Shown: positions 4,061-16,031 of the stretch, one piece after another | How the letters are laid out: every line of letters begins with the position of its first letter | Position numbering within the stretch: the first letter of the stretch is position 1 | UHGV virus genome: UHGV-0259371 | DNA length: 16,031 nucleotides | Source of the DNA: a virus | Reading direction: 5' to 3' (one strand) | Made by a program: the position numbers and the translations under genes | Notes under the pieces: model-generated | Told to the model about the DNA's origin: nothing | Database searches by the model: none | Seen by the model: only the letters and a program-made list of their open reading frames with translations

Positions 4061-4264
4061 TTAATTCATATTACGCTTAATAACTTCAGCAACTTCTAGT
4101 AGTTCATCTTTAGTTGCAGTGTCGGATTGAATTTTATCTCTAATATCTTTAAAGCGGTTTTTAAATTCTTCGGCTTCTCCCATATCGAAAAAGCGTTGAA
4201 TGATTCTATATTCTCGATGAACTGCTTTATCAAAAAGTTCTAAATTTACTCTATATGATTTCAT
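4061..4264 (-). CDS. Small early protein, 67 aa (position of T4 rIIA.1)
   Basis: ORF directly upstream of rIIA with RBS GAGGA and an early promoter immediately upstream. Confidence 0.6.
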
Positions 4265-4289: not shown

Positions 4290-4319
4290 ATTATACCACA
4301 TCCTTGTGGTAAAGTAAAC
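4290..4319 (-). promoter_or_regulatory. T4-type early promoter for the rIIA.1-rIIA-rIIB unit
   Basis: Minus strand: GTTTAC-TTTACCACAAGGATGTGG-TATAAT. The G of the gene 39 stop codon TAG is the first base of GTTTAC. Confidence 0.7.
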
Positions 4320-6139
4320 TACTGGCTCATCCATTCTTTACGAAGGTCAGCATTATCTCCCATGAGCATTTCAAAAAGCTCTTTCCAATTCTCAGGAAGT
4401 TTAACAACATCATATACTGGATTTTGAATCATCTCACGATATTCAGATTTTTCCAAAGAGCCAAGTCCCTTAATATAACGGATGCTATGTTTAGGTAGAG
4501 CATCTTTGGCACTCTCATATTCAGCGACTGTATAAAACCATTCTTGTTTTTTACCGACCTGAGCGATGATTACAGGAGTTTTGACAAAGCGAATTCGTCC
4601 TTGCTCAAACAATTCTGGCCAATTACTAAAAAATCCGAGCAGAGAAGGATAAATGCTTCCTAGACCATCATGGTCAGCATCAGTCATAATAGCAATATTG
4701 CGATAATTCAAGTTTTCAGCTTTTTCACCAAGAACTAGACCAGTGATTGCGCAAATATCAAATAGTTCTTTGTTTTTAAGCATATCGGCATATGACATAC
4801 CCCAGCTATTAAGAACTTTACCGCGCAATGGATAACCACCATGAAGTTCTTTATCGCGAACATCAATAAGATATCCGATAGCTGAATCACCCTCAGTCAA
4901 GAACAATGTAGTGTCAGCATCTTTACCGCAAAGATTCGCTTTGATATGTTTATGAACCTTAGCTTTAGAAGCCTTTTTAGCTGCTTTAGTTTCTGCTGCT
5001 TTTTCTGCTGCCAATTTACGAGCTAATGCTGCTTCAATAATTGGCATCAAAATTGCTTCATTATTTAGAATAGCGCGTGAAATCTTTTTAGCATCAAGTT
5101 GAATATGACTACGGATTTCACCAAATGGAGAAGTCAAACGCTCTTTAGTTTGAGAATCAAATCGCATGTTTTTCATATCACGAACAAACATAACGATAGT
5201 CAAACATTCTTTGACACGTGCTTTAGTTACATCAATTTTGAACTTACGTTTGATTTGTGGAATAAGGTCTTCACAAATATCATCCATAACACAGTCAATG
5301 TGATGGCCACCATTCTTAGTGTGAATGTTATTGACGTACGTCAACTGACGAAAACCATCCGGTGAACGACCAACCGCAATAGAACAATTTTCTTGTTCTT
5401 GAACAATAGCATGTTCATCATACTGTCGTGCATATTTCTTAAAATTGCCCTGAACCTTTTTACCATTAAAGGTAAATTGAATATCAGGATAAACAACAGC
5501 AAGTGTTTGGAGACGATCTAGTGTAATGTCAAGATAAACTTGGGACAGCTCATTAGTTTCAAATGACATAAAATCAGGAATGAAAGTAACACGGGTTCCT
5601 TTCCATTTTCCAGGAATATCTTCCCATGATTTATTTTCCATGCCGTTTGAACAACGAACTACAATATTATTTTGACCATCACCAGTTTCACCGACAAACA
5701 TCACAGAAAAAATGTTTGTCAAACTAGAACCAACACCATTCATACCACCGGTGACGCGTTCTTTATCATCACCGAAGTTACCACCTGCTTTTGGAATAGT
5801 CCACGCAGCAACAGGACCAGGAATTTCTTCACCGGTAGGTGTTTTAACCATCGCTTGTGGAATACCGCGACCGTTATCTTCAACTGTTACTTGATTGTTT
5901 TTAATAGTAACATTAATTTTATTTGCGAATTTAAACTTAGTACGAATACCTTCATCTACTGAGTTATCGATAATTTCATCAATAAGCTTAACAAGACCAG
6001 GTACATACTGAACACTTTCCCATTTACCAAACAGAAAGCGCTCATGCATTTCATTAGCAGAAGAGCCAATGTACATGCCGCTACGCTTTTTGATATGTTC
6101 AATATCGCTCAGAATTTTAATTTCATTCTTAATCATCAC
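4319..6139 (-). CDS. 39: DNA topoisomerase II large subunit (GyrB-like ATPase + TOPRIM), 606 aa, unsplit
   Basis: GHKL motifs IDEIIDNSVDEG, EDNGRGIP, GGMNGVGSS; TOPRIM motifs LTEGDSA and MTDADHDG. Sits upstream of rIIA.1/rIIA as in T-even phages. Confidence 0.9.
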   Translation of the reverse strand: MMIKNEIKILSDIEHIKKRSGMYIGSSANEMHERFLFGKWESVQYVPGLVKLIDEIIDNSVDEGIRTKFKFANKINVTIKNNQVTVEDNGRGIPQAMVKTPTGEEIPGPVAAWTIPKAGGNFGDDKERVTGGMNGVGSSLTNIFSVMFVGETGDGQNNIVVRCSNGMENKSWEDIPGKWKGTRVTFIPDFMSFETNELSQVYLDITLDRLQTLAVVYPDIQFTFNGKKVQGNFKKYARQYDEHAIVQEQENCSIAVGRSPDGFRQLTYVNNIHTKNGGHHIDCVMDDICEDLIPQIKRKFKIDVTKARVKECLTIVMFVRDMKNMRFDSQTKERLTSPFGEIRSHIQLDAKKISRAILNNEAILMPIIEAALARKLAAEKAAETKAAKKASKAKVHKHIKANLCGKDADTTLFLTEGDSAIGYLIDVRDKELHGGYPLRGKVLNSWGMSYADMLKNKELFDICAITGLVLGEKAENLNYRNIAIMTDADHDGLGSIYPSLLGFFSNWPELFEQGRIRFVKTPVIIAQVGKKQEWFYTVAEYESAKDALPKHSIRYIKGLGSLEKSEYREMIQNPVYDVVKLPENWKELFEMLMGDNADLRKEWMSQ

Positions 6140-6163: not shown

Positions 6164-6188
6164 ATTATACTCCGGTAATCATAAAGCT
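6164..6188 (-). promoter_or_regulatory. Candidate middle-type promoter upstream of gene 39 (MotA-box-like AGCTTTA, 12 nt, TATAAT)
   Basis: Minus strand: TTTAGCTTTA-TGATTACCGGAG-TATAAT, then GAGGA RBS and ATG. Box differs from consensus TGCTTTA at one position. Confidence 0.4.
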
Positions 6189-6190
6189 AA

Positions 6191-6206
6191 AGGCCCGAAG
6201 GCCTTT
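6191..6206 (-). terminator. C(UUCG)G hairpin (AGGCC-UUCG-GGCCU) between the lipoprotein gene and gene 39
   Basis: GC-rich stem with UUCG loop on the minus transcript, overlapping the lipoprotein stop codon. Confidence 0.5.
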
Positions 6207-10786: not shown

Positions 10787-11033
10787 GAATAGCTTCCTCA
10801 AATTTAATCAGCAGCTTACAGACACTTTCATCTAGCGTAATTACCGTGTCTGTATTACTGTGATATGATTGTTTTTCAATTCGTTTAATTGCTAGTATAG
10901 TATCACTTATAAGATTAAGCTTATAAAGGAGCTCAGCTCCTGTTACCATAACACTGAGGTTATCTTGCTTATCAGTGTGCTTCTTTATACCATCTATTAG
11001 ACGATTTAAATATTTTGAATTGATGTTAATCAT
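10773..11033 (-). CDS. Small early protein, 86 aa, immediately downstream of dda
   Basis: ATG start with RBS GAGGA; begins 7 nt after the dda stop. Confidence 0.55.
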   Translation of the reverse strand: MININSKYLNRLIDGIKKHTDKQDNLSVMVTGAELLYKLNLISDTILAIKRIEKQSYHSNTDTVITLDESVCKLLIKFEEAIRGNN

Positions 11034-11039
11034 ATATCC

Positions 11040-12359
11040 TCACACATAAAACACATCATAACGACCACGAGTGACACCAACATAAAGAAGCTGCTGAGCC
11101 AATTCAGCGTCTGCATAATGAATACAAGGCGTATAGATGAAAGCACGGTCTACAGACATACCCTGTGCTTTATGGAATGTTGATGCAGGAAGTGCTTTCA
11201 CTTTACTAAACTGTGATTTAGCATCCCAAAAATCACTCCACGGAGCTTTTCCACCTTTATTCCAATTTTTATAAGTTTCCGCCGTTTTACCTAAAAATAA
11301 GTTAAACTTATACAGCTCTTCATCAGATGAAATTATTTTAATCTTTTCACGATAATATTCATCATCGCCGTAAGTTTCTACTGTTAAATCCCAATGACGA
11401 ATTAGATATTCTCCAGAAACACCACGAGCTTTAACAAATGTTGATGTATACTCTGCTTCTATAATACGAACTAATTGTCCGTTATTAAAAATAATTTCTG
11501 ACACAGGCTTTCCATCAATTTTATATGTTTTAATTAATGGTTCCTGCATTACAATAATTTCACCAACGATAAAATCTTTATCAGTTTCAAAAATCTTTTT
11601 GCGAATAATGCTATTTAACTTGTCAACGGATTTATTCGTAAATGCCATTACGCGATTTTCAAACAAATCATCTAGCGATTTGACGATTGAAAAATAATTT
11701 ACCATAAAATCGCGTAAAGCGGTATCACCAGTAAATCCACGTACTCCATGCCCGTCAACAATTTTATCATAAATCCACTTACCATTACGAACATCAGTAG
11801 CTACATCAATAATAGGAGCATTACTGCGTTTAACTTCAGTAAGTTCACACTGATAAAAATCTTTGTGTGTAAAGAATGGACTGATATAAGCAGTATTTTC
11901 TCCTGGGTCAACAGGTCTAATTTGCTTATTATCGCCTATTCCAATTATAGTACACCACGGTGGGATAGTTGAAAGCAAAATTTTGAAGAGCTTTCTATCA
12001 TACATTGACACTTCGTCGCAGATTAATACCCTGCATTTAGCTAAATCTGGTACTTCTTTTTGTTCAAAAAGAACGTTTTCTTCATACGTAACTGGGTTAA
12101 TTTTAAGAATACTGTGAATAGTACTCGCTTCTTTCCCCGACAGTTTTGAAAGAATCTTTTTAGCTGCATGAGTAGGAGCTGCTAAAATAATACCAGTTTC
12201 ACCCGTAGATATTAAAGCTTCAATGATGAATTTTGTAAGAGTAGTCTTACCAGTACCAGCAGGTCCATTAATAGTTACATGATGTTTCTTTTCTTTAATA
12301 GCCCTCATAACGATGTTAAAGGCATTTTTCTGGCCTTCTGTCAAATCATCAAATGTCAT
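11040..12359 (-). CDS. dda: Dda DNA helicase (SF1B), 439 aa
   Basis: 439 aa; Walker A GPAGTGKT near the N-terminus, C-terminal VGVTRGR; sequence matches T4 Dda as I recall it. Confidence 0.9.
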   Translation of the reverse strand: MTFDDLTEGQKNAFNIVMRAIKEKKHHVTINGPAGTGKTTLTKFIIEALISTGETGIILAAPTHAAKKILSKLSGKEASTIHSILKINPVTYEENVLFEQKEVPDLAKCRVLICDEVSMYDRKLFKILLSTIPPWCTIIGIGDNKQIRPVDPGENTAYISPFFTHKDFYQCELTEVKRSNAPIIDVATDVRNGKWIYDKIVDGHGVRGFTGDTALRDFMVNYFSIVKSLDDLFENRVMAFTNKSVDKLNSIIRKKIFETDKDFIVGEIIVMQEPLIKTYKIDGKPVSEIIFNNGQLVRIIEAEYTSTFVKARGVSGEYLIRHWDLTVETYGDDEYYREKIKIISSDEELYKFNLFLGKTAETYKNWNKGGKAPWSDFWDAKSQFSKVKALPASTFHKAQGMSVDRAFIYTPCIHYADAELAQQLLYVGVTRGRYDVFYV

Positions 12360-12668: not shown

Positions 12669-13415
12669 TTATCCTCGGATAAGTTTAAAAATTGAACAAT
12701 TTAGCGGGTATCCTCTTTTCAGTTTAAGTTTATCAATAAAAGACAAGTTTTGATACCGCTCTACACCTTGAATAATTTTATCACACATATCATATTGCAT
12801 TTCTGCTTCTGACAACTTTTTCACAATTTTCCAATCCGAGCCTTTAAGAAGAACGTTCAGTTTAACAACTTCAGCGCCTTCTGCTATGCGAGAACCATCA
12901 ATACGAGCTTTAAGCGCTATAATTCTTAGCTTAATGTCAGAGGTCTGTTTTGATTTAGAAAGCTGAGAAATGTGTTCAATTCGGTTTTCACGTTTTTTCT
13001 GTATAGCTTTAATTTGATTATAAGTCTTTTTGATTTTAGCCCATTTCTTTTCATCTAAATTTAGTTTATGAACTTTTTTCGCAGATGAACGACCAATTCG
13101 CAAAGCAAACAAATCACGTTTTTCAATTAACTCCTCTAAAGTATAATCAGAACGAAATGTATTATACTTTTTCTTTACTGCAATAACGTTCCCTTTAATG
13201 TATCCAATGTTATTATCAAAACGTTCTAATGATAATTTCTCTCCTTCAATACGATTATCAAAAGGTTCTCCCGAGTAAGCACAAACTTTTTGATCTAAAA
13301 TGTTCTTAATGTAATTGAAGTCTAAGTTAAAATCTTTAGAACGTCTTTTTGCAGATGCCTGAGTATGCTCTAAACGACGTTTAATTTTACGAATTTGGTT
13401 ATTAGACAGCTTCAT
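12669..13415 (-). CDS. srd: Basic early protein, 248 aa (srd-like by position and size)
   Basis: First gene after the early promoter at 13452-13481; lies between dda and modA as T4 srd does. Highly basic, K/R-rich. Assignment by synteny and length only. Confidence 0.45.
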   Translation of the reverse strand: MKLSNNQIRKIKRRLEHTQASAKRRSKDFNLDFNYIKNILDQKVCAYSGEPFDNRIEGEKLSLERFDNNIGYIKGNVIAVKKKYNTFRSDYTLEELIEKRDLFALRIGRSSAKKVHKLNLDEKKWAKIKKTYNQIKAIQKKRENRIEHISQLSKSKQTSDIKLRIIALKARIDGSRIAEGAEVVKLNVLLKGSDWKIVKKLSEAEMQYDMCDKIIQGVERYQNLSFIDKLKLKRGYPLNCSIFKLIRG

Positions 13416-13451
13416 ATTTTTCTCACATCTTACGGACGGTTAACTACTTAT

Positions 13452-13481
13452 ACTATAACATTTTTACTTTAACTTGTAAAC
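13452..13481 (-). promoter_or_regulatory. T4-type early promoter for the srd-like/dda/dexA unit
   Basis: Minus strand: TTTTTCATAAAGTT-GTTTAC-AAGTTAAAGTAAAAATGT-TATAGT. Confidence 0.6.
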
Positions 13482-13495
13482 AACTTTATGAAAAA

Positions 13496-13520
13496 TGCTT
13501 TAAAACTTTCATGGTATAAT
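13496..13520 (+). promoter_or_regulatory. Consensus MotA-box middle promoter on the plus strand, pointing antisense into modA
   Basis: Plus strand: AAAAA-TGCTTTA-AAACTTTCATGG-TATAAT (12-nt gap; TGGTATAAT is an extended -10). Confidence 0.45.
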
Positions 13521-13537
13521 GAATCTAAGTCCTTCCA

Positions 13538-14140
13538 TTATAGATTAAATCCTTCAAAATCAAGAGTATAGATAGTGTATGTTGAATACTTTTTATACTC
13601 GTATCTATCCGCAATTCTAAATACACTTCCAGCTGGTATCATTACTTCCTGTTCATCTGAAACTAATTCCATATTACGATAACGATGGCTATCCGGAAAT
13701 TTAAAACTCGGACTATATTCTTTACAGCGTAGAGCTTTTATAGCATACTCCTGGAAATTGAATACCATAGGAGCTTTGAATTCAAAAATAACTTGTGTGT
13801 TGTATTCTAATCCAGAAGCAAAATGCAGAGCTATATTTTTATCATATGAAGCTGATACGACTTTATCAAATGTAATAATATCAATTCCTTGATTTAATAT
13901 TTGTTTAGTCTCAGCTGGAACACCTCTCCAAAGAGGTTTATTGTTTGGAACCAAACGAGATTTGATTATTTCATTTAACCAAGAATGATCGTCTGGCTTA
14001 TTAGTAATACAATGAATTAAAAGTTCAATTTCAGATAAATTAAATCCTTCGGAAAGTAATTCTTCACGAATAGAAGCACGCACCGATGCATCCATTGATT
14101 TGATTTTAAAATCTTTTAATTGCATTGCTGAATATTTCAT
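13538..14140 (-). CDS. modA: ADP-ribosyltransferase ModA, 200 aa
   Basis: 200 aa (the T4 ModA length); R-S-ExE-type motifs readable (LWRGV, SASY, DEQEV); in tandem with a 207-aa paralog, 4-nt overlap. Confidence 0.75.
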   Translation of the reverse strand: MKYSAMQLKDFKIKSMDASVRASIREELLSEGFNLSEIELLIHCITNKPDDHSWLNEIIKSRLVPNNKPLWRGVPAETKQILNQGIDIITFDKVVSASYDKNIALHFASGLEYNTQVIFEFKAPMVFNFQEYAIKALRCKEYSPSFKFPDSHRYRNMELVSDEQEVMIPAGSVFRIADRYEYKKYSTYTIYTLDFEGFNL

Positions 14141-14760
14141 TCAACTACCTCAATATCATACACTTTAAATGTTCCAAACGAATCGTGTAATTTTTCTTTT
14201 GAAATAGAAGTTATTTTATACTTTCCAATTGGAATCATCCATTCTTGTTCACGCACAATCATCATTAAGTTATCAGTACGTTCTGAATCTAATCCATCAG
14301 TATCTTCATATGTATACTTAAACTCAGTATTAGGAGAAGAAAGTATAATATCGCTGATATGGTCAGAATAATTAAAAGCTTTATCAGTTTTTAAACGAAG
14401 TATTGTTTCAGTGAAATATTCAGCATAAGAAAAAGAACACGCTGTATGCAAACTAGTAGTAAATGAATCTACCCTGTTCGTTGAAAACACTTCTCCAACT
14501 TGTAAATCTTTAATAAGTTCTTTTGTCGATTTTGATATACCACGATATAACTGATAAGGCGATTTAGTTAAATGCTTTTTAATGATTTTATTCAACTGCC
14601 GATGAAGAGCTTCATTCTTTTTGGCTTCCATACATTGCCAAAGAACAGACTGCTCAAAGTCAGTAAATTTTTCACAGACTTTTTTATACATATCATATTG
14701 AAAATCAACGCTTTCAGCTTTTATAGATAACTGTTCAACATCTGCAGGATTAATAATCAT
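14137..14760 (-). CDS. modB: ADP-ribosyltransferase ModB, 207 aa
   Basis: 207 aa (the T4 ModB length); motifs LYRGI, FSTN, REQEW; strong RBS GGAGG; own early promoter upstream. Confidence 0.75.
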   Translation of the reverse strand: MIINPADVEQLSIKAESVDFQYDMYKKVCEKFTDFEQSVLWQCMEAKKNEALHRQLNKIIKKHLTKSPYQLYRGISKSTKELIKDLQVGEVFSTNRVDSFTTSLHTACSFSYAEYFTETILRLKTDKAFNYSDHISDIILSSPNTEFKYTYEDTDGLDSERTDNLMMIVREQEWMIPIGKYKITSISKEKLHDSFGTFKVYDIEVVE

Positions 14761-15489: not shown

Positions 15490-15634
15490 GTGATTTCCTC
15501 TTGCCTACTAATGGACCATCAGGAATTTTGTTTTCCTGGATATACTTCTCATTTTCTTCCATCATTTTACTTCCAATTTTAAGAAGCAAATCTAACGCTT
15601 CATTTGCTTTAGCCTTAGCCTCTTCTAACGTCAT
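15482..15634 (-). CDS. Possible small protein, 50 aa, absent from the ORF track
   Basis: Hand translation: [50 protein letters not shown]. Exactly fills the gap between the 67-aa and 156-aa ORFs with start/stop overlaps; RBS is weak. Confidence 0.35.
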
Positions 15635-15846: not shown

Positions 15847-15934
15847 TCGTTTTACCTAAAACAATAGTAGGAGCATCATCAAATTCATGAATTTTTAGCA
15901 AATTAGGATTTAAATTGTTCCATACATAATAAAT

Positions 15935-16031
15935 AAAGTATGATAAAGCATCTTCACTCGCAATTATAAATTTATTTCCTTTATCTATTTTCCAGTCATA
16001 TACTGCGAGTGAAGATGCTTTATCATACTTT
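15935..16031. repeat. Perfect 28-bp inverted repeat (arms 15935-15962 and 16004-16031) around a 41-nt AT-rich loop, in non-coding DNA at the window edge
   Basis: Arm 1 AAAGTATGATAAAGCATCTTCACTCGCA is the exact reverse complement of arm 2. Each arm contains ATGCTTTA (MotA-box-like). No ORF longer than about 13 codons on the minus strand across 15850-16031. Confidence 0.8.

What the first reader, a model, noticed from the sequence alone, without database searches (positions are those of the whole stretch)
13496..13520. Consensus MotA-box promoter on the plus strand, antisense to modA/modB
Every gene here is on the minus strand, yet the srd-modA intergenic region carries a near-perfect T4 middle-promoter signature on the plus strand (TGCTTTA, 12-nt gap, TGGTATAAT). 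It sits back-to-back with the minus-strand early promoter and points into modA. No plus-strand ORF of 60 aa or more follows it, so any transcript would be antisense RNA to the ADP-ribosyltransferase genes. This could be a middle-mode switch that shuts off ModA/ModB, which are early and toxic when cloned.
Basis: partly seen in the sequence, partly recalled or inferred. Interest (0 to 1): 0.6.

Follow-up and report, generated by a model that had tools for sequence, protein, structure and literature searches.

The report
Conserved antisense MotA middle promoter at modA
Between the T4-type genes srd and modA sits a textbook-perfect "middle" promoter pointing the wrong way, into modA; it is kept in seven related phage genera and is missing in a relative that lacks the activator MotA, so it is almost certainly real and probably makes an antisense RNA, although no transcript data were available.

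Summary
TGCTTTA (13496-13502), a 12-nt gap and TATAAT (13515-20, preceded by TGG) lie on the + strand. They sit back-to-back with the minus-strand early promoter of srd and 11 nt from the modA stop codon.

The motif is not chance. A matrix built from 55 mapped T4 middle promoters ranks this site first in the whole T4 genome. No shuffled genome reaches its score. The site is absent from the published list of 58 mapped middle promoters.

It shares 27 of 29 nt (-15 to +14) with PuvsY, the oriF promoter. A third copy lies antisense between T4 genes 3 and 2.

An antisense MotA-type promoter occupies the mod-srd spacer in seven Tevenvirinae genera, although the rest of the spacer has turned over. 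Only GCTTT and G..TATAATG stay invariant. A MotA-less Krischvirus with the same gene order has none.

No ORF, RNA family, stable fold or conserved terminator follows the promoter.

Best reading: a real MotA/AsiA-dependent promoter that drives non-coding antisense transcription into modA and modB. Silencing of these early genes is plausible but untested. An origin-like R-loop role is the main rival.

The RB69 ortholog was already listed, without comment, in a 2006 supplement.

The parts
13493..13502 (+). MotA box AAATGCTTTA (core TGCTTTA 13496-13502), centred about -30
   Evidence: Read. Full match to the consensus (a/t)(a/t)(a/t)TGCTTtA quoted. GCTTT is invariant across six genera.
13503..13514 (+). 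12-nt spacer between MotA box and -10; its last three bases, TGG (13512-13514), form an extended -10 (TGn)
   Evidence: The published spacing rule is 12 +/- 1 bp. One spacer position varies C/A among Tequatroviruses.
13515..13520 (+). sigma-70 type -10 hexamer TATAAT
   Evidence: 0 of 9 positions of TGG+TATAAT vary in 17 Tequatrovirus sequences. TATAAT is invariant across genera.
13521..13540 (+). Discriminator and initial transcribed sequence GAATCTAAGTCCTTCCATTA. The predicted start is A at 13527. Together with 13512-13520 it forms the 29-mer that matches PuvsY at 27 of 29 positions.
   Evidence: The start is inferred from the mapped PuvsY start at T4 115371, which is the seventh base after the -10. 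1 of 17 positions is variable.
13452..13480 (-). Early (sigma-70) promoter of srd: TTTACA, 17 nt, TATAGT with TG. It lies back-to-back with the + strand promoter.
   Evidence: A promoter feature is annotated at the same place in phage DalCa. The hexamers are conserved.
13538..14140 (-). modA (RNA polymerase ADP-ribosyltransferase, 200 aa). This is the first gene covered by the antisense transcript; its stop codon lies 11 nt from the predicted start.
   Evidence: ORF. T4 annotation.
14137..14760 (-). modB (ADP-ribosyltransferase, 207 aa). It would be covered only if the antisense transcript runs more than 610 nt.
12669..13415 (-). srd (248 aa), the gene served by the neighbouring early promoter
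13922..13947 (+). Weak terminator-like hairpin (6-bp stem, poor U tract) about 400 nt downstream of the predicted start. It is a possible 3' end but not a convincing one.
   Evidence: Most Tequatroviruses have TTTATCGTTTGG after the stem, with dG about -7.8. No counterpart in other genera.
12775..12802 (-). Homolog of the experimentally mapped middle promoter Pdda.1 (start 12768). It served as a positive control for conservation.
   Evidence: Table 1 of PMC2988021 gives the T4 start at 11138. PWM 15.2 bits. Conserved in the same loci at 15-17 bits.

Best explanation
This is a genuine MotA/AsiA-dependent ('sigma appropriation') middle promoter on the strand opposite to all neighbouring genes.

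Proposed sequence of events: from about 2-4 min after infection, MotA binds the box at 13493-13502. AsiA-remodelled sigma-70 RNA polymerase uses TGGTATAAT and starts at about 13527. It then transcribes a non-coding RNA antisense to modA, and to modB if it is not stopped earlier, probably by Rho.

The most likely consequence is that expression of these early, toxic ADP-ribosyltransferase genes is curtailed once the middle period begins. Two routes are possible: head-on collision with polymerases reading modB-modA, and pairing of the antisense RNA with the 3' part of modA mRNA followed by RNase III-type decay.

Shown here: the sequence, its rank, its relatives and its conservation.
Inferred: that it fires in vivo (I put this at about 0.8), and that silencing of modA/modB is its purpose (about 0.4).
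For: 1. Every defining sequence feature of a T4 middle promoter is met.
2. A PWM trained on 55 mapped T4 middle promoters, which did not include this site, ranks it first genome-wide at 22.7 bits. 0 of 20 shuffled genomes reach that score. Of the 23 best sites, 20 are mapped promoters (46441 appears as 6440 in the review's table, which looks like a misprint). The three exceptions are this site, its twin at T4 76000(+), and a sense-strand site at 132780, 59 nt from Pcd.
3. It shares 27 of 29 nt with PuvsY, a mapped and strong MotA promoter, including the start region.
4. In 17 Tequatroviruses the -10 and start region is the least variable part of the spacer: 1 of 26 positions varies, against 18 of 31 in the srd leader.
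5. An antisense-strand MotA-type promoter lies in the mod-srd spacer of Mosig-, Gapriver-, Dhaka-, Karam-, Gelderland- and Jiaodavirus. It is present in all 21 IMG/VR loci at 14-23 bits, and it scores highest in 12 of those loci. The rest of the spacer is not alignable, and only GCTTT and G..TATAATG..T are invariant. The chance of a site of at least 14 bits per 150 bp on the antisense strand is 0.002-0.009.
6. Krischvirus GEC-3S has the same mod-srd-dda.1-dda order. No MotA or AsiA homolog was found in its syntenic region, and it has no such site (best 8.3 bits). RB49-type phages lack motA according to PMC1524935.
7. The start always lies 10-50 nt from the mod gene's stop codon and points into the gene, whichever side of the srd early promoter it sits on.
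8. ModA synthesis is highly toxic to E. coli and is an early product (PMC2988021; PMC9697503).
Against: There is no experimental evidence of a + strand 5' end here. The site is not among the 58 mapped middle promoters, and nothing relevant turned up in ten full-text searches.

No conserved intrinsic terminator, RNA fold (z = -0.03) or Rfam family defines a discrete antisense RNA.

Synonymous variation in the 3' part of modA is not reduced.

The twin promoter between genes 3 and 2 points into late genes. Early-gene shut-off cannot be the purpose there.

According to PMC2988021, deleting modA does not change the shut-off of early transcription, so tight control of ModA may matter little.
Confidence: 0.45

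Rival explanations
1. Origin-type promoter. The transcript forms a persistent R-loop just downstream. The R-loop primes rightward leading-strand DNA synthesis or marks a recombination hot spot, as at oriF (PuvsY) and oriG (P34i). The antisense orientation would then be incidental.
For: The site shares 27 of 29 nt with the oriF promoter, including the first 14 transcribed bases. The only mapped antisense middle promoter, P34i, is an origin. Minimal T4 origins are a middle promoter plus a downstream unwinding element (PMC3016281). This site and its gene 3/gene 2 twin both point toward origins whose priming is poorly understood and which lie 3-5 kb away: oriA near soc/56, and oriE at T4 79355.
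Against: The GenBank record and the review attribute oriA priming to the minus-strand P56/69 transcript at 16.8 kb, and oriE to an early promoter. A nearest-neighbour helical-stability scan did not single out this site, and it did not single out the known origins either, so it has no discriminating power. No replication data exist for 11.9 kb. The initial transcribed RNA is pyrimidine-rich, which does not favour stable RNA-DNA hybrids (my own inference).
Confidence: 0.13
2. The promoter is real, but its job is to control the adjacent srd early promoter. MotA and polymerase bound here would compete with, occlude or block the srd promoter or leader. The antisense RNA would be a by-product.
For: In every genus the site lies within about 6-60 bp of the srd early promoter. 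In Tequatro-, Mosig-, Gapriver- and Dhakavirus the MotA box falls in the UP-element zone of that promoter. In Karam-, Gelderland- and Jiaodavirus it sits inside the srd leader, face-to-face with the early promoter.
Against: The spacing to the -35 element varies from 6 to 15 bp, and the order is reversed in three genera, so no fixed overlap is conserved. Alpha-subunit ADP-ribosylation already abolishes UP-element use after infection (PMC2988021). UP elements are A/T tracts and would not explain the invariant GC of GCTT.
Confidence: 0.08
3. The promoter is active but has no function. It would be a copy of a PuvsY-like promoter cassette spread by recombination and tolerated because antisense RNA is cleared by Rho and RNases.
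For: Three to four T4 promoters share the same -10 and start module. No downstream feature is conserved.
Against: The site is retained at the same position and orientation in seven genera whose spacers are otherwise unalignable. Invariance is confined to the promoter elements. The site is lost where MotA is absent. A neutral site would have decayed like the srd leader, where 18 of 31 positions vary within one genus.
Confidence: 0.12
4. The site is not a promoter in vivo. The sequence would be conserved for a minus-strand reason, such as the modA 3' UTR, RNA processing or the srd UP element, and the + strand match would be coincidental or silenced.
For: The site is never reported among mapped promoters. 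Some consensus-like boxes are silent on modified T4 DNA, for example the GATT boxes described in PMC2988021.
Against: The box has the canonical GCTT core, not GATT. The conserved positions are exactly those that define MotA promoters, on the + strand, in seven genera. In three of those genera the site lies on the other side of the early promoter, which rules out a fixed 3'-UTR or UP-element role. Its probability by chance is very low.
Confidence: 0.1

Closest known systems
T4 PuvsY, the middle promoter of uvsY and of replication origin oriF (start at T4 115371)
   Same: MotA box (TGCTTCA versus TGCTTTA). Identical TGGTATAAT. 27 of 29 nt are identical from -15 to +14. PuvsY has the third-best PWM score and this site the best.
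   Different: PuvsY is in the sense orientation, has a 13-nt spacer and serves a gene (uvsY). It is experimentally mapped and is shown to form the oriF R-loop. The site studied here is antisense, has no gene downstream and is unmapped.
T4 P34i, the promoter of oriG (start at T4 153011)
   Same: A MotA-type promoter that points against the surrounding genes. This shows that antisense middle promoters exist and function.
   Different: P34i lies inside a late gene (34) and its known role is replication priming. Its start region is unrelated, and its PWM score is lower (18.2 bits).
RB69 predicted middle promoter Pm:12081 (+ strand), Nolan et al. 2006, Additional file 4 (PMC1524935)
   Same: It is the positional ortholog. 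RB69 12081-12122 is the modA-srd spacer, on the + strand, and reads aaaATGCTTTA...gtgtTATAATggttctgag.
   Different: It is only a low-scoring line (7.9) in a supplementary table. It was not discussed, not tested, and not connected to T4 or to antisense transcription.
Unmapped + strand site between T4 genes 3 and 2 (predicted start at T4 76000; RB69 Pm:79256)
   Same: Perfect consensus, second-best PWM score, the same -10 and start module, antisense orientation, placed next to the stop codon of the upstream gene, and conserved in Mosigvirus.
   Different: It points into late genes 2 and 4, and beyond them toward gene 53 and oriE. It lies outside this window.
Phage lambda OOP RNA, antisense to cII (from general knowledge; not tested here)
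   Same: It works in a similar way. A promoter just past the 3' end of a regulatory gene fires back into it. The RNA pairs with the 3' part of the mRNA and triggers RNase III-dependent decay.
   Different: OOP is a discrete 77-nt RNA with its own terminator and is made by unmodified sigma-70 polymerase. At the site studied here no terminator or structure is conserved, and the promoter is activator-dependent.

Membership tests
T4-type MotA/AsiA-dependent middle promoter (sigma appropriation) | MotA box (a/t)(a/t)(a/t)TGCTT(t/c)A centred near -30 | tested here: met
   AAATGCTTTA at 13493-13502. Consensus as quoted from PMC2988021.
T4-type MotA/AsiA-dependent middle promoter (sigma appropriation) | sigma-70 -10 element TAtaaT placed 12 +/- 1 bp after the box; TGn is present in about half of the members | tested here: met
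   TATAAT at 13515-13520 after a 12-nt gap, with TGG just before it.
T4-type MotA/AsiA-dependent middle promoter (sigma appropriation) | No sigma-70 -35 hexamer in place of the box | tested here: met
   The sigma-70 scan lists no + strand promoter ending at 13520. The hexamers 16-18 bp upstream (AATGCT, AAATGC, AAAATG) match TTGACA at no more than one position.
T4-type MotA/AsiA-dependent middle promoter (sigma appropriation) | Overall similarity to mapped members | tested here: met
   PWM from 55 mapped promoters gives 22.7 bits, rank 1 of the T4 genome on both strands. 0 of 20 shuffled genomes reach this score.
T4-type MotA/AsiA-dependent middle promoter (sigma appropriation) | The phage encodes MotA and AsiA | tested here: inconclusive
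   motA and asiA lie outside this window. T4, which is about 97.5% identical across the 2.2-kb srd-modB segment and identical in the intergenic region, encodes both. The MotA-less relative GEC-3S lacks the site.
T4-type MotA/AsiA-dependent middle promoter (sigma appropriation) | A transcript 5' end that appears in the middle period and depends on MotA and AsiA | not testable with these tools
   No RNA data are available. The site is absent from the table of 58 mapped promoters.
T4 R-loop replication origin (oriF/oriG type) | A middle-mode promoter | tested here: met
   As in the rows above. In addition, 27 of 29 nt are identical to the oriF promoter.
T4 R-loop replication origin (oriF/oriG type) | An A+T-rich DNA unwinding element just downstream | tested here: inconclusive
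   The least stable 50-bp window downstream has dG -53.7, which is within the range of ordinary middle promoters. The same measure does not distinguish PuvsY (-54.7) or P34i (-55.1).
T4 R-loop replication origin (oriF/oriG type) | Persistent R-loop, autonomous plasmid replication during infection, and origin arcs on 2D gels | not testable with these tools
   These are experimental criteria described in PMC3016281.
Discrete cis-antisense regulatory RNA | A promoter that directs transcription across the target gene on the opposite strand | tested here: met
   The predicted start at 13527 lies 11 nt from the modA stop codon at 13538-40 and points into modA.
Discrete cis-antisense regulatory RNA | A defined 3' end (a conserved terminator) | tested here: not met
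   The only candidate is a weak hairpin at 13922-13947. Mosig-, Gapriver- and Dhakavirus have no counterpart.
Discrete cis-antisense regulatory RNA | Conserved RNA structure or a known RNA family | tested here: not met
   Fold z-score -0.03. No Rfam match at E <= 1. No drop in synonymous variation.
Discrete cis-antisense regulatory RNA | An effect on the target's mRNA or protein | not testable with these tools
   This needs promoter mutants and measurements of expression.

The most novel reading that the evidence does not exclude
This promoter and its twin between genes 3 and 2 could be origin-type promoters like their close relative PuvsY/oriF. Their rightward transcripts would form R-loops that prime replication toward oriA (near soc/56) and oriE (gene 5). 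The priming of both origins has remained unclear, and oriE has been said to have no middle promoter nearby. If so, the PuvsY-like start module (TATAATGnnTCTAAGTCC.TCC) would mark a class of replication-priming promoters conserved across Tevenvirinae.
Probability: 0.1. Interest if true: 0.85.

Novelty: new member of a known kind. Interest (0 to 1): 0.6.

Why it matters
T4 transcription is one of the best-mapped systems in biology. Even so, the best match to the middle-promoter consensus in the whole T4 genome is not among the 58 mapped promoters, apparently because it points the 'wrong' way.

If it fires, it would be a conserved, activator-timed antisense transcript in T4. A 2010 review states that no small trans-acting regulatory RNA had been functionally characterised in T4 (PMC3014915). 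It would also give a concrete mechanism for confining the toxic ADP-ribosyltransferases ModA and ModB to the early period.

Alternatively, it could bear on the open question of how origins other than oriF and oriG are primed.

Either idea can be tested directly. The site is intergenic, so point mutations in the -10 element or the MotA box change no protein.

Tried and rejected
Literature. None found any mention of a + strand promoter, antisense RNA or 5' end at modA/srd. Several key papers are not held: Miller 2003, Tiemann 1999 and 2004, Brister & Nossal 2007, Brister 2008 and Vaiskunaite 1999. Prior mention in those papers therefore cannot be excluded.

T4 GenBank record. It carries no promoter features here.

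Coding target. There is no + strand ORF of 60 aa or more. The ORFs of 21-44 aa in 13575-14190 lack any support; the one checked (13575..13682) has no ribosome-binding site. The 27-aa ORF at 13488 starts upstream of the predicted transcription start.

Known RNA family. No Rfam hit.

Structured RNA. Fold z-score -0.03.

Discrete terminator. None is conserved.

RNA-level constraint on modA codons. None was seen.

Unwinding-element test for an origin. It was uninformative, because it does not separate the known origins from other promoters.

Concerted evolution of the start module. The Dhakavirus 17-mer TATAATGAATCAAGGAC occurs only once per Dhakavirus contig, so PuvsY there does not share it.

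UP-element explanation for the conserved box. Rejected, because the spacing to the -35 element varies and the order is reversed in three genera.

Full report
OBSERVATION

The + strand reads gaaaaaTGCTTTAaaactttcaTGGTATAATgaatctaagtcc. TGCTTTA is at 13496-13502 and TATAAT at 13515-13520, with a 12-nt gap between them. TGG directly before the -10 gives an extended -10. AAA before the box completes the 10-nt MotA-box consensus. The coordinates are right.

The strict pattern TGCTTTA-N11-13-TATAAT occurs once in the window against 0.03 expected.

On the other strand lies a good early promoter for srd: TTTACA 13480-13475, 17 nt, TATAGT 13457-13452, with TG. The two promoters are therefore back-to-back, with starts about 82 bp apart.

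All genes in the window are on the minus strand. No + strand ORF of 60 aa or more follows the site.

CONTEXT

The window is a Tequatrovirus segment running from rIIB past modB. It is 97.5% identical to T4 over srd-modA-modB, and 503 phage records match. In T4 the intergenic sequence is identical. Window coordinate minus 1630 gives the T4 coordinate, so the predicted start 13527 corresponds to T4 11897.

The genes are:
- srd, 12669-13415
- modA, 13538-14140
- modB, 14137-14760

All three are on the minus strand. The predicted start lies 11 nt from the modA stop codon.

HOW GOOD A MIDDLE PROMOTER IS IT?

The review PMC2988021 lists 58 mapped T4 middle promoters. The nearest to this site are Pdda.1 (11138) and P56/69 (16813). 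None lies near 11897.

I assembled the T4 genome and aligned 55 of the mapped promoters by their published starts. From these I built a matrix for box, spacing and extended -10, and scanned both strands. The results were:
- This site ranks first in the genome at 22.7 bits.
- A second + strand site at T4 76000 ranks second (21.7 bits).
- PuvsY ranks third (21.3 bits).
- Of the 23 best sites, 20 are mapped promoters. One of them, 46441, appears as 6440 in the review's table, which looks like a misprint. The three exceptions are the two + strand sites and a sense-strand site at 132780, 59 nt from Pcd.
- No Markov-shuffled genome (0 of 20) reaches the candidate's score.

The strict consensus occurs three times in T4: at P45.2 and at these two sites. 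On the sense strand a high score is thus an almost perfect predictor of a real promoter. This makes it likely that the two antisense sites were simply never tested.

TGn/-10 contacts are unaffected by sigma appropriation (PMC2988021). The site may therefore also have some activity without MotA; this is my inference.

A PROMOTER FAMILY

The 29 nt from TGG to +14 (TGGTATAATGAATCTAAGTCCTTCCATTA, 13512-13540) match PuvsY at 27 of 29 positions. PuvsY is the uvsY promoter and the oriF promoter. Its mapped start at T4 115371 is the seventh base after the -10, which is the basis for placing the start here at 13527.

The T4 76000(+) site lies between genes 3 and 2 and reads TAATGCTTTAtaactgttggTGGTATAATgggtctaagtcccttccatt. 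It carries the same module. PnrdC.7 carries a weaker version.

The gene 3/gene 2 site is also antisense and also sits next to the stop codon of the upstream gene. A 45-aa ORF lies downstream of it, but that ORF's ATG is ACG in RB69, so it is probably not coding.

CONSERVATION

Within Tequatrovirus, ten diverse genomes were aligned and 17 sequences were counted. The variable positions were:
- TGG+TATAAT: 0 of 9
- The next 17 nt: 1 of 17
- The srd leader: 18 of 31
- modA coding windows: 7-17%

Variants of the box are TGCTTCA (PE37), which still fits the consensus, and TGACTTTA (RB18).

Beyond the genus, BLAST no longer aligns the spacer. Yet the antisense strand of the mod-srd spacer carries a MotA-type promoter in each of these genera:

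| Genus (phage) | Antisense-strand sequence |
|---|---|
| Mosigvirus (PhAPEC2, NBG1, RB69) | aaaATGCTTTAattttttatgtgtTATAATggttctgag |
| Gaprivervirus (TH57; Yersinia phage P8 carries the same sequence) | taaCGCTTTTAtttttactgtgTATAATggttctaag |
| Dhakavirus | ttTGCTTTAaattttcgacggTATAATgaatcaagg |
| Karamvirus | taTGCTTTTgcgaaagtagcggTATAATggtttcaagg |
| Gelderlandvirus | 18.8 bits, the best site in the locus |
| Jiaodavirus | aaATGCTTTCgtcttacggacggTATAATgggtctagg, 15.6 bits, the best site in the locus |

All 21 IMG/VR loci found with a ModA profile carry the site 14-139 nt past the mod gene. In those same loci the experimentally mapped Pdda.1 is conserved at similar or lower scores, which serves as a positive control.

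In a six-genus alignment the only invariant columns in this half of the spacer are GCTTT and G..TATAATG..T.

The chance of a site of at least 14 bits on the antisense strand per 150 bp is 0.002 in shuffled sequence and 0.009 in real T4 sequence.

In Karam-, Gelderland- and Jiaodavirus the site lies on the srd side of the early promoter, face-to-face with it. In the other genera it is back-to-back. What stays constant is the orientation into the mod gene.

Krischvirus GEC-3S has the same mod-srd-dda.1-dda order. It has no site in the spacer; the best hit is 8.3 bits. Its syntenic t-gene 52-rIIB region has no MotA or AsiA homolog. This agrees with PMC1524935 for RB49. The element therefore tracks the presence of MotA.

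WHAT FOLLOWS THE PROMOTER

- No supported ORF.
- No Rfam family.
- No stable fold: the first 174 nt give z = -0.03.
- Only one weak hairpin, at 13922-13947, with a poor U tract.
- No corresponding terminator in other genera.
- Third-codon-position variation in modA is flat along the gene.

The conserved entity is therefore the promoter and its first 15 nt or so. It is not a structured RNA.

MECHANISM

Shown: a conserved, MotA-linked, top-scoring promoter signature aimed into modA.

Inferred: MotA plus AsiA-modified polymerase starts at about 13527 in the middle period and makes an untranslated antisense RNA of undefined length, probably ended by Rho.

The most economical purpose is to curtail modA/modB expression after the early period, by convergent-transcription collisions and by RNA duplex formation. 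ModA is an early product and is highly toxic. I put the probability of promoter activity in vivo at about 0.8 and of silencing as its main role at about 0.4.

Points against the silencing role:
- The twin promoter aims at late genes.
- modA deletion does not alter early shut-off.
- There is no RNA-level constraint.

RIVALS

(a) Origin-like R-loop promoter. This is supported by the near-identity to the oriF promoter, by the precedent of antisense P34i/oriG, and by the definition of T4 origins as a middle promoter plus an unwinding element. Both + strand sites point toward poorly understood origins 3-5 kb away. However, oriA and oriE are currently attributed to other transcripts, and my unwinding-element test was uninformative.

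(b) Control of the srd early promoter by competition or occlusion. This is weakened by the variable spacing and the reversed order in three genera.

(c) Active but functionless copy of a promoter cassette. This is contradicted by conservation across seven genera and by loss of the site where MotA is absent.

(d) Not a promoter in vivo. This is unlikely given which bases are conserved.

COMPARISON AND NOVELTY

By sequence the site qualifies as a MotA-dependent middle promoter. The experimental criteria could not be tested.

Antisense middle promoters are known (P34i). The RB69 orthologs of both + strand sites appear as lines Pm:12081(+) and Pm:79256(+) in Additional file 4 of Nolan et al. 2006. 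I verified them on RB69 sequence. They are not discussed in that paper.

I found no report of the T4 site, of its conservation, of its kinship with PuvsY, or of any antisense RNA to modA. Several key papers were not available to me, so earlier mention cannot be excluded.

I rate the site a new member of a known kind. The possible function, either an activator-timed antisense control of modA/modB or a new origin promoter, would be new for T4.

VERDICT

Interest is 0.6.

Noticed in passing
T4 (AF158101.6) 75965-76013, + strand = L004 25965-26013; RB69 79256-79296 = L065 857-897; PhAPEC2 L022 about 6224: A second orphan antisense middle promoter lies between genes 3 and 2. It reads TAATGCTTTA-N13-TATAATgggtctaagtccc. 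It has the second-best PWM score in T4, is conserved in Mosigvirus, and points into late genes 2 and 4 and toward gene 53 and oriE. It is not among the 58 mapped promoters.
   Followed up: partly
window 13512-13540; T4 115386-115358 (PuvsY); T4 53340 (PnrdC.7); PhAPEC2 L022 44186 and 39030 (minus strand): A subset of middle promoters shares the -10 and start module TGGTATAATGnnTCTAAGyCC(n)TCC. In Mosigvirus, PuvsY and the gene 3/gene 2 site share a slightly different version (GGTTTTAGGTC). This hints at a common constraint or at gene conversion. The function of the conserved first 15 or so transcribed bases is unknown.
   Followed up: partly
window 13428-13440 (minus-strand RNA CCGTCCGTAAGAT, in the srd 5' leader): The motif CGTCCGTAAGA, just upstream of the srd ribosome-binding site, is conserved in Tequatro-, Mosig-, Gapriver-, Dhaka- and Jiaodavirus, while the flanking leader varies. 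It could form a tiny hairpin or be an operator or processing site. It remains unexplained.
   Followed up: no
Table 1 of PMC2988021 versus T4 46441 and 165227: Two start coordinates in the review's table look misprinted. PnrdD+ is given as 6440 but the PWM hit is at 46441. P52 is given as 65227 but the hit is at 165227. No motif is found at the printed positions.
   Followed up: partly
window 4319-6139 (minus strand): The window has a single 606-aa ORF where T4 has gene 39 (516 aa), the mobA pseudogene, 60.1 and the split gene 60 with its translational bypass. This phage appears to carry the unsplit topoisomerase large-subunit gene.
   Followed up: no
window 12775-12802, 1991-2017, 2245-2272, 4131-4159, 6164-6191 and 11696-11724 (all minus strand): Homologs of the mapped T4 middle promoters Pdda.1, PrIIB2, PrIIB1, PrIIA, P39 and Pdex.2 are all present in the window at 15-19 bits. 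Further unmapped sense-strand candidates lie at 15926-15953, 15564-15591 and 10897-10924.
   Followed up: no
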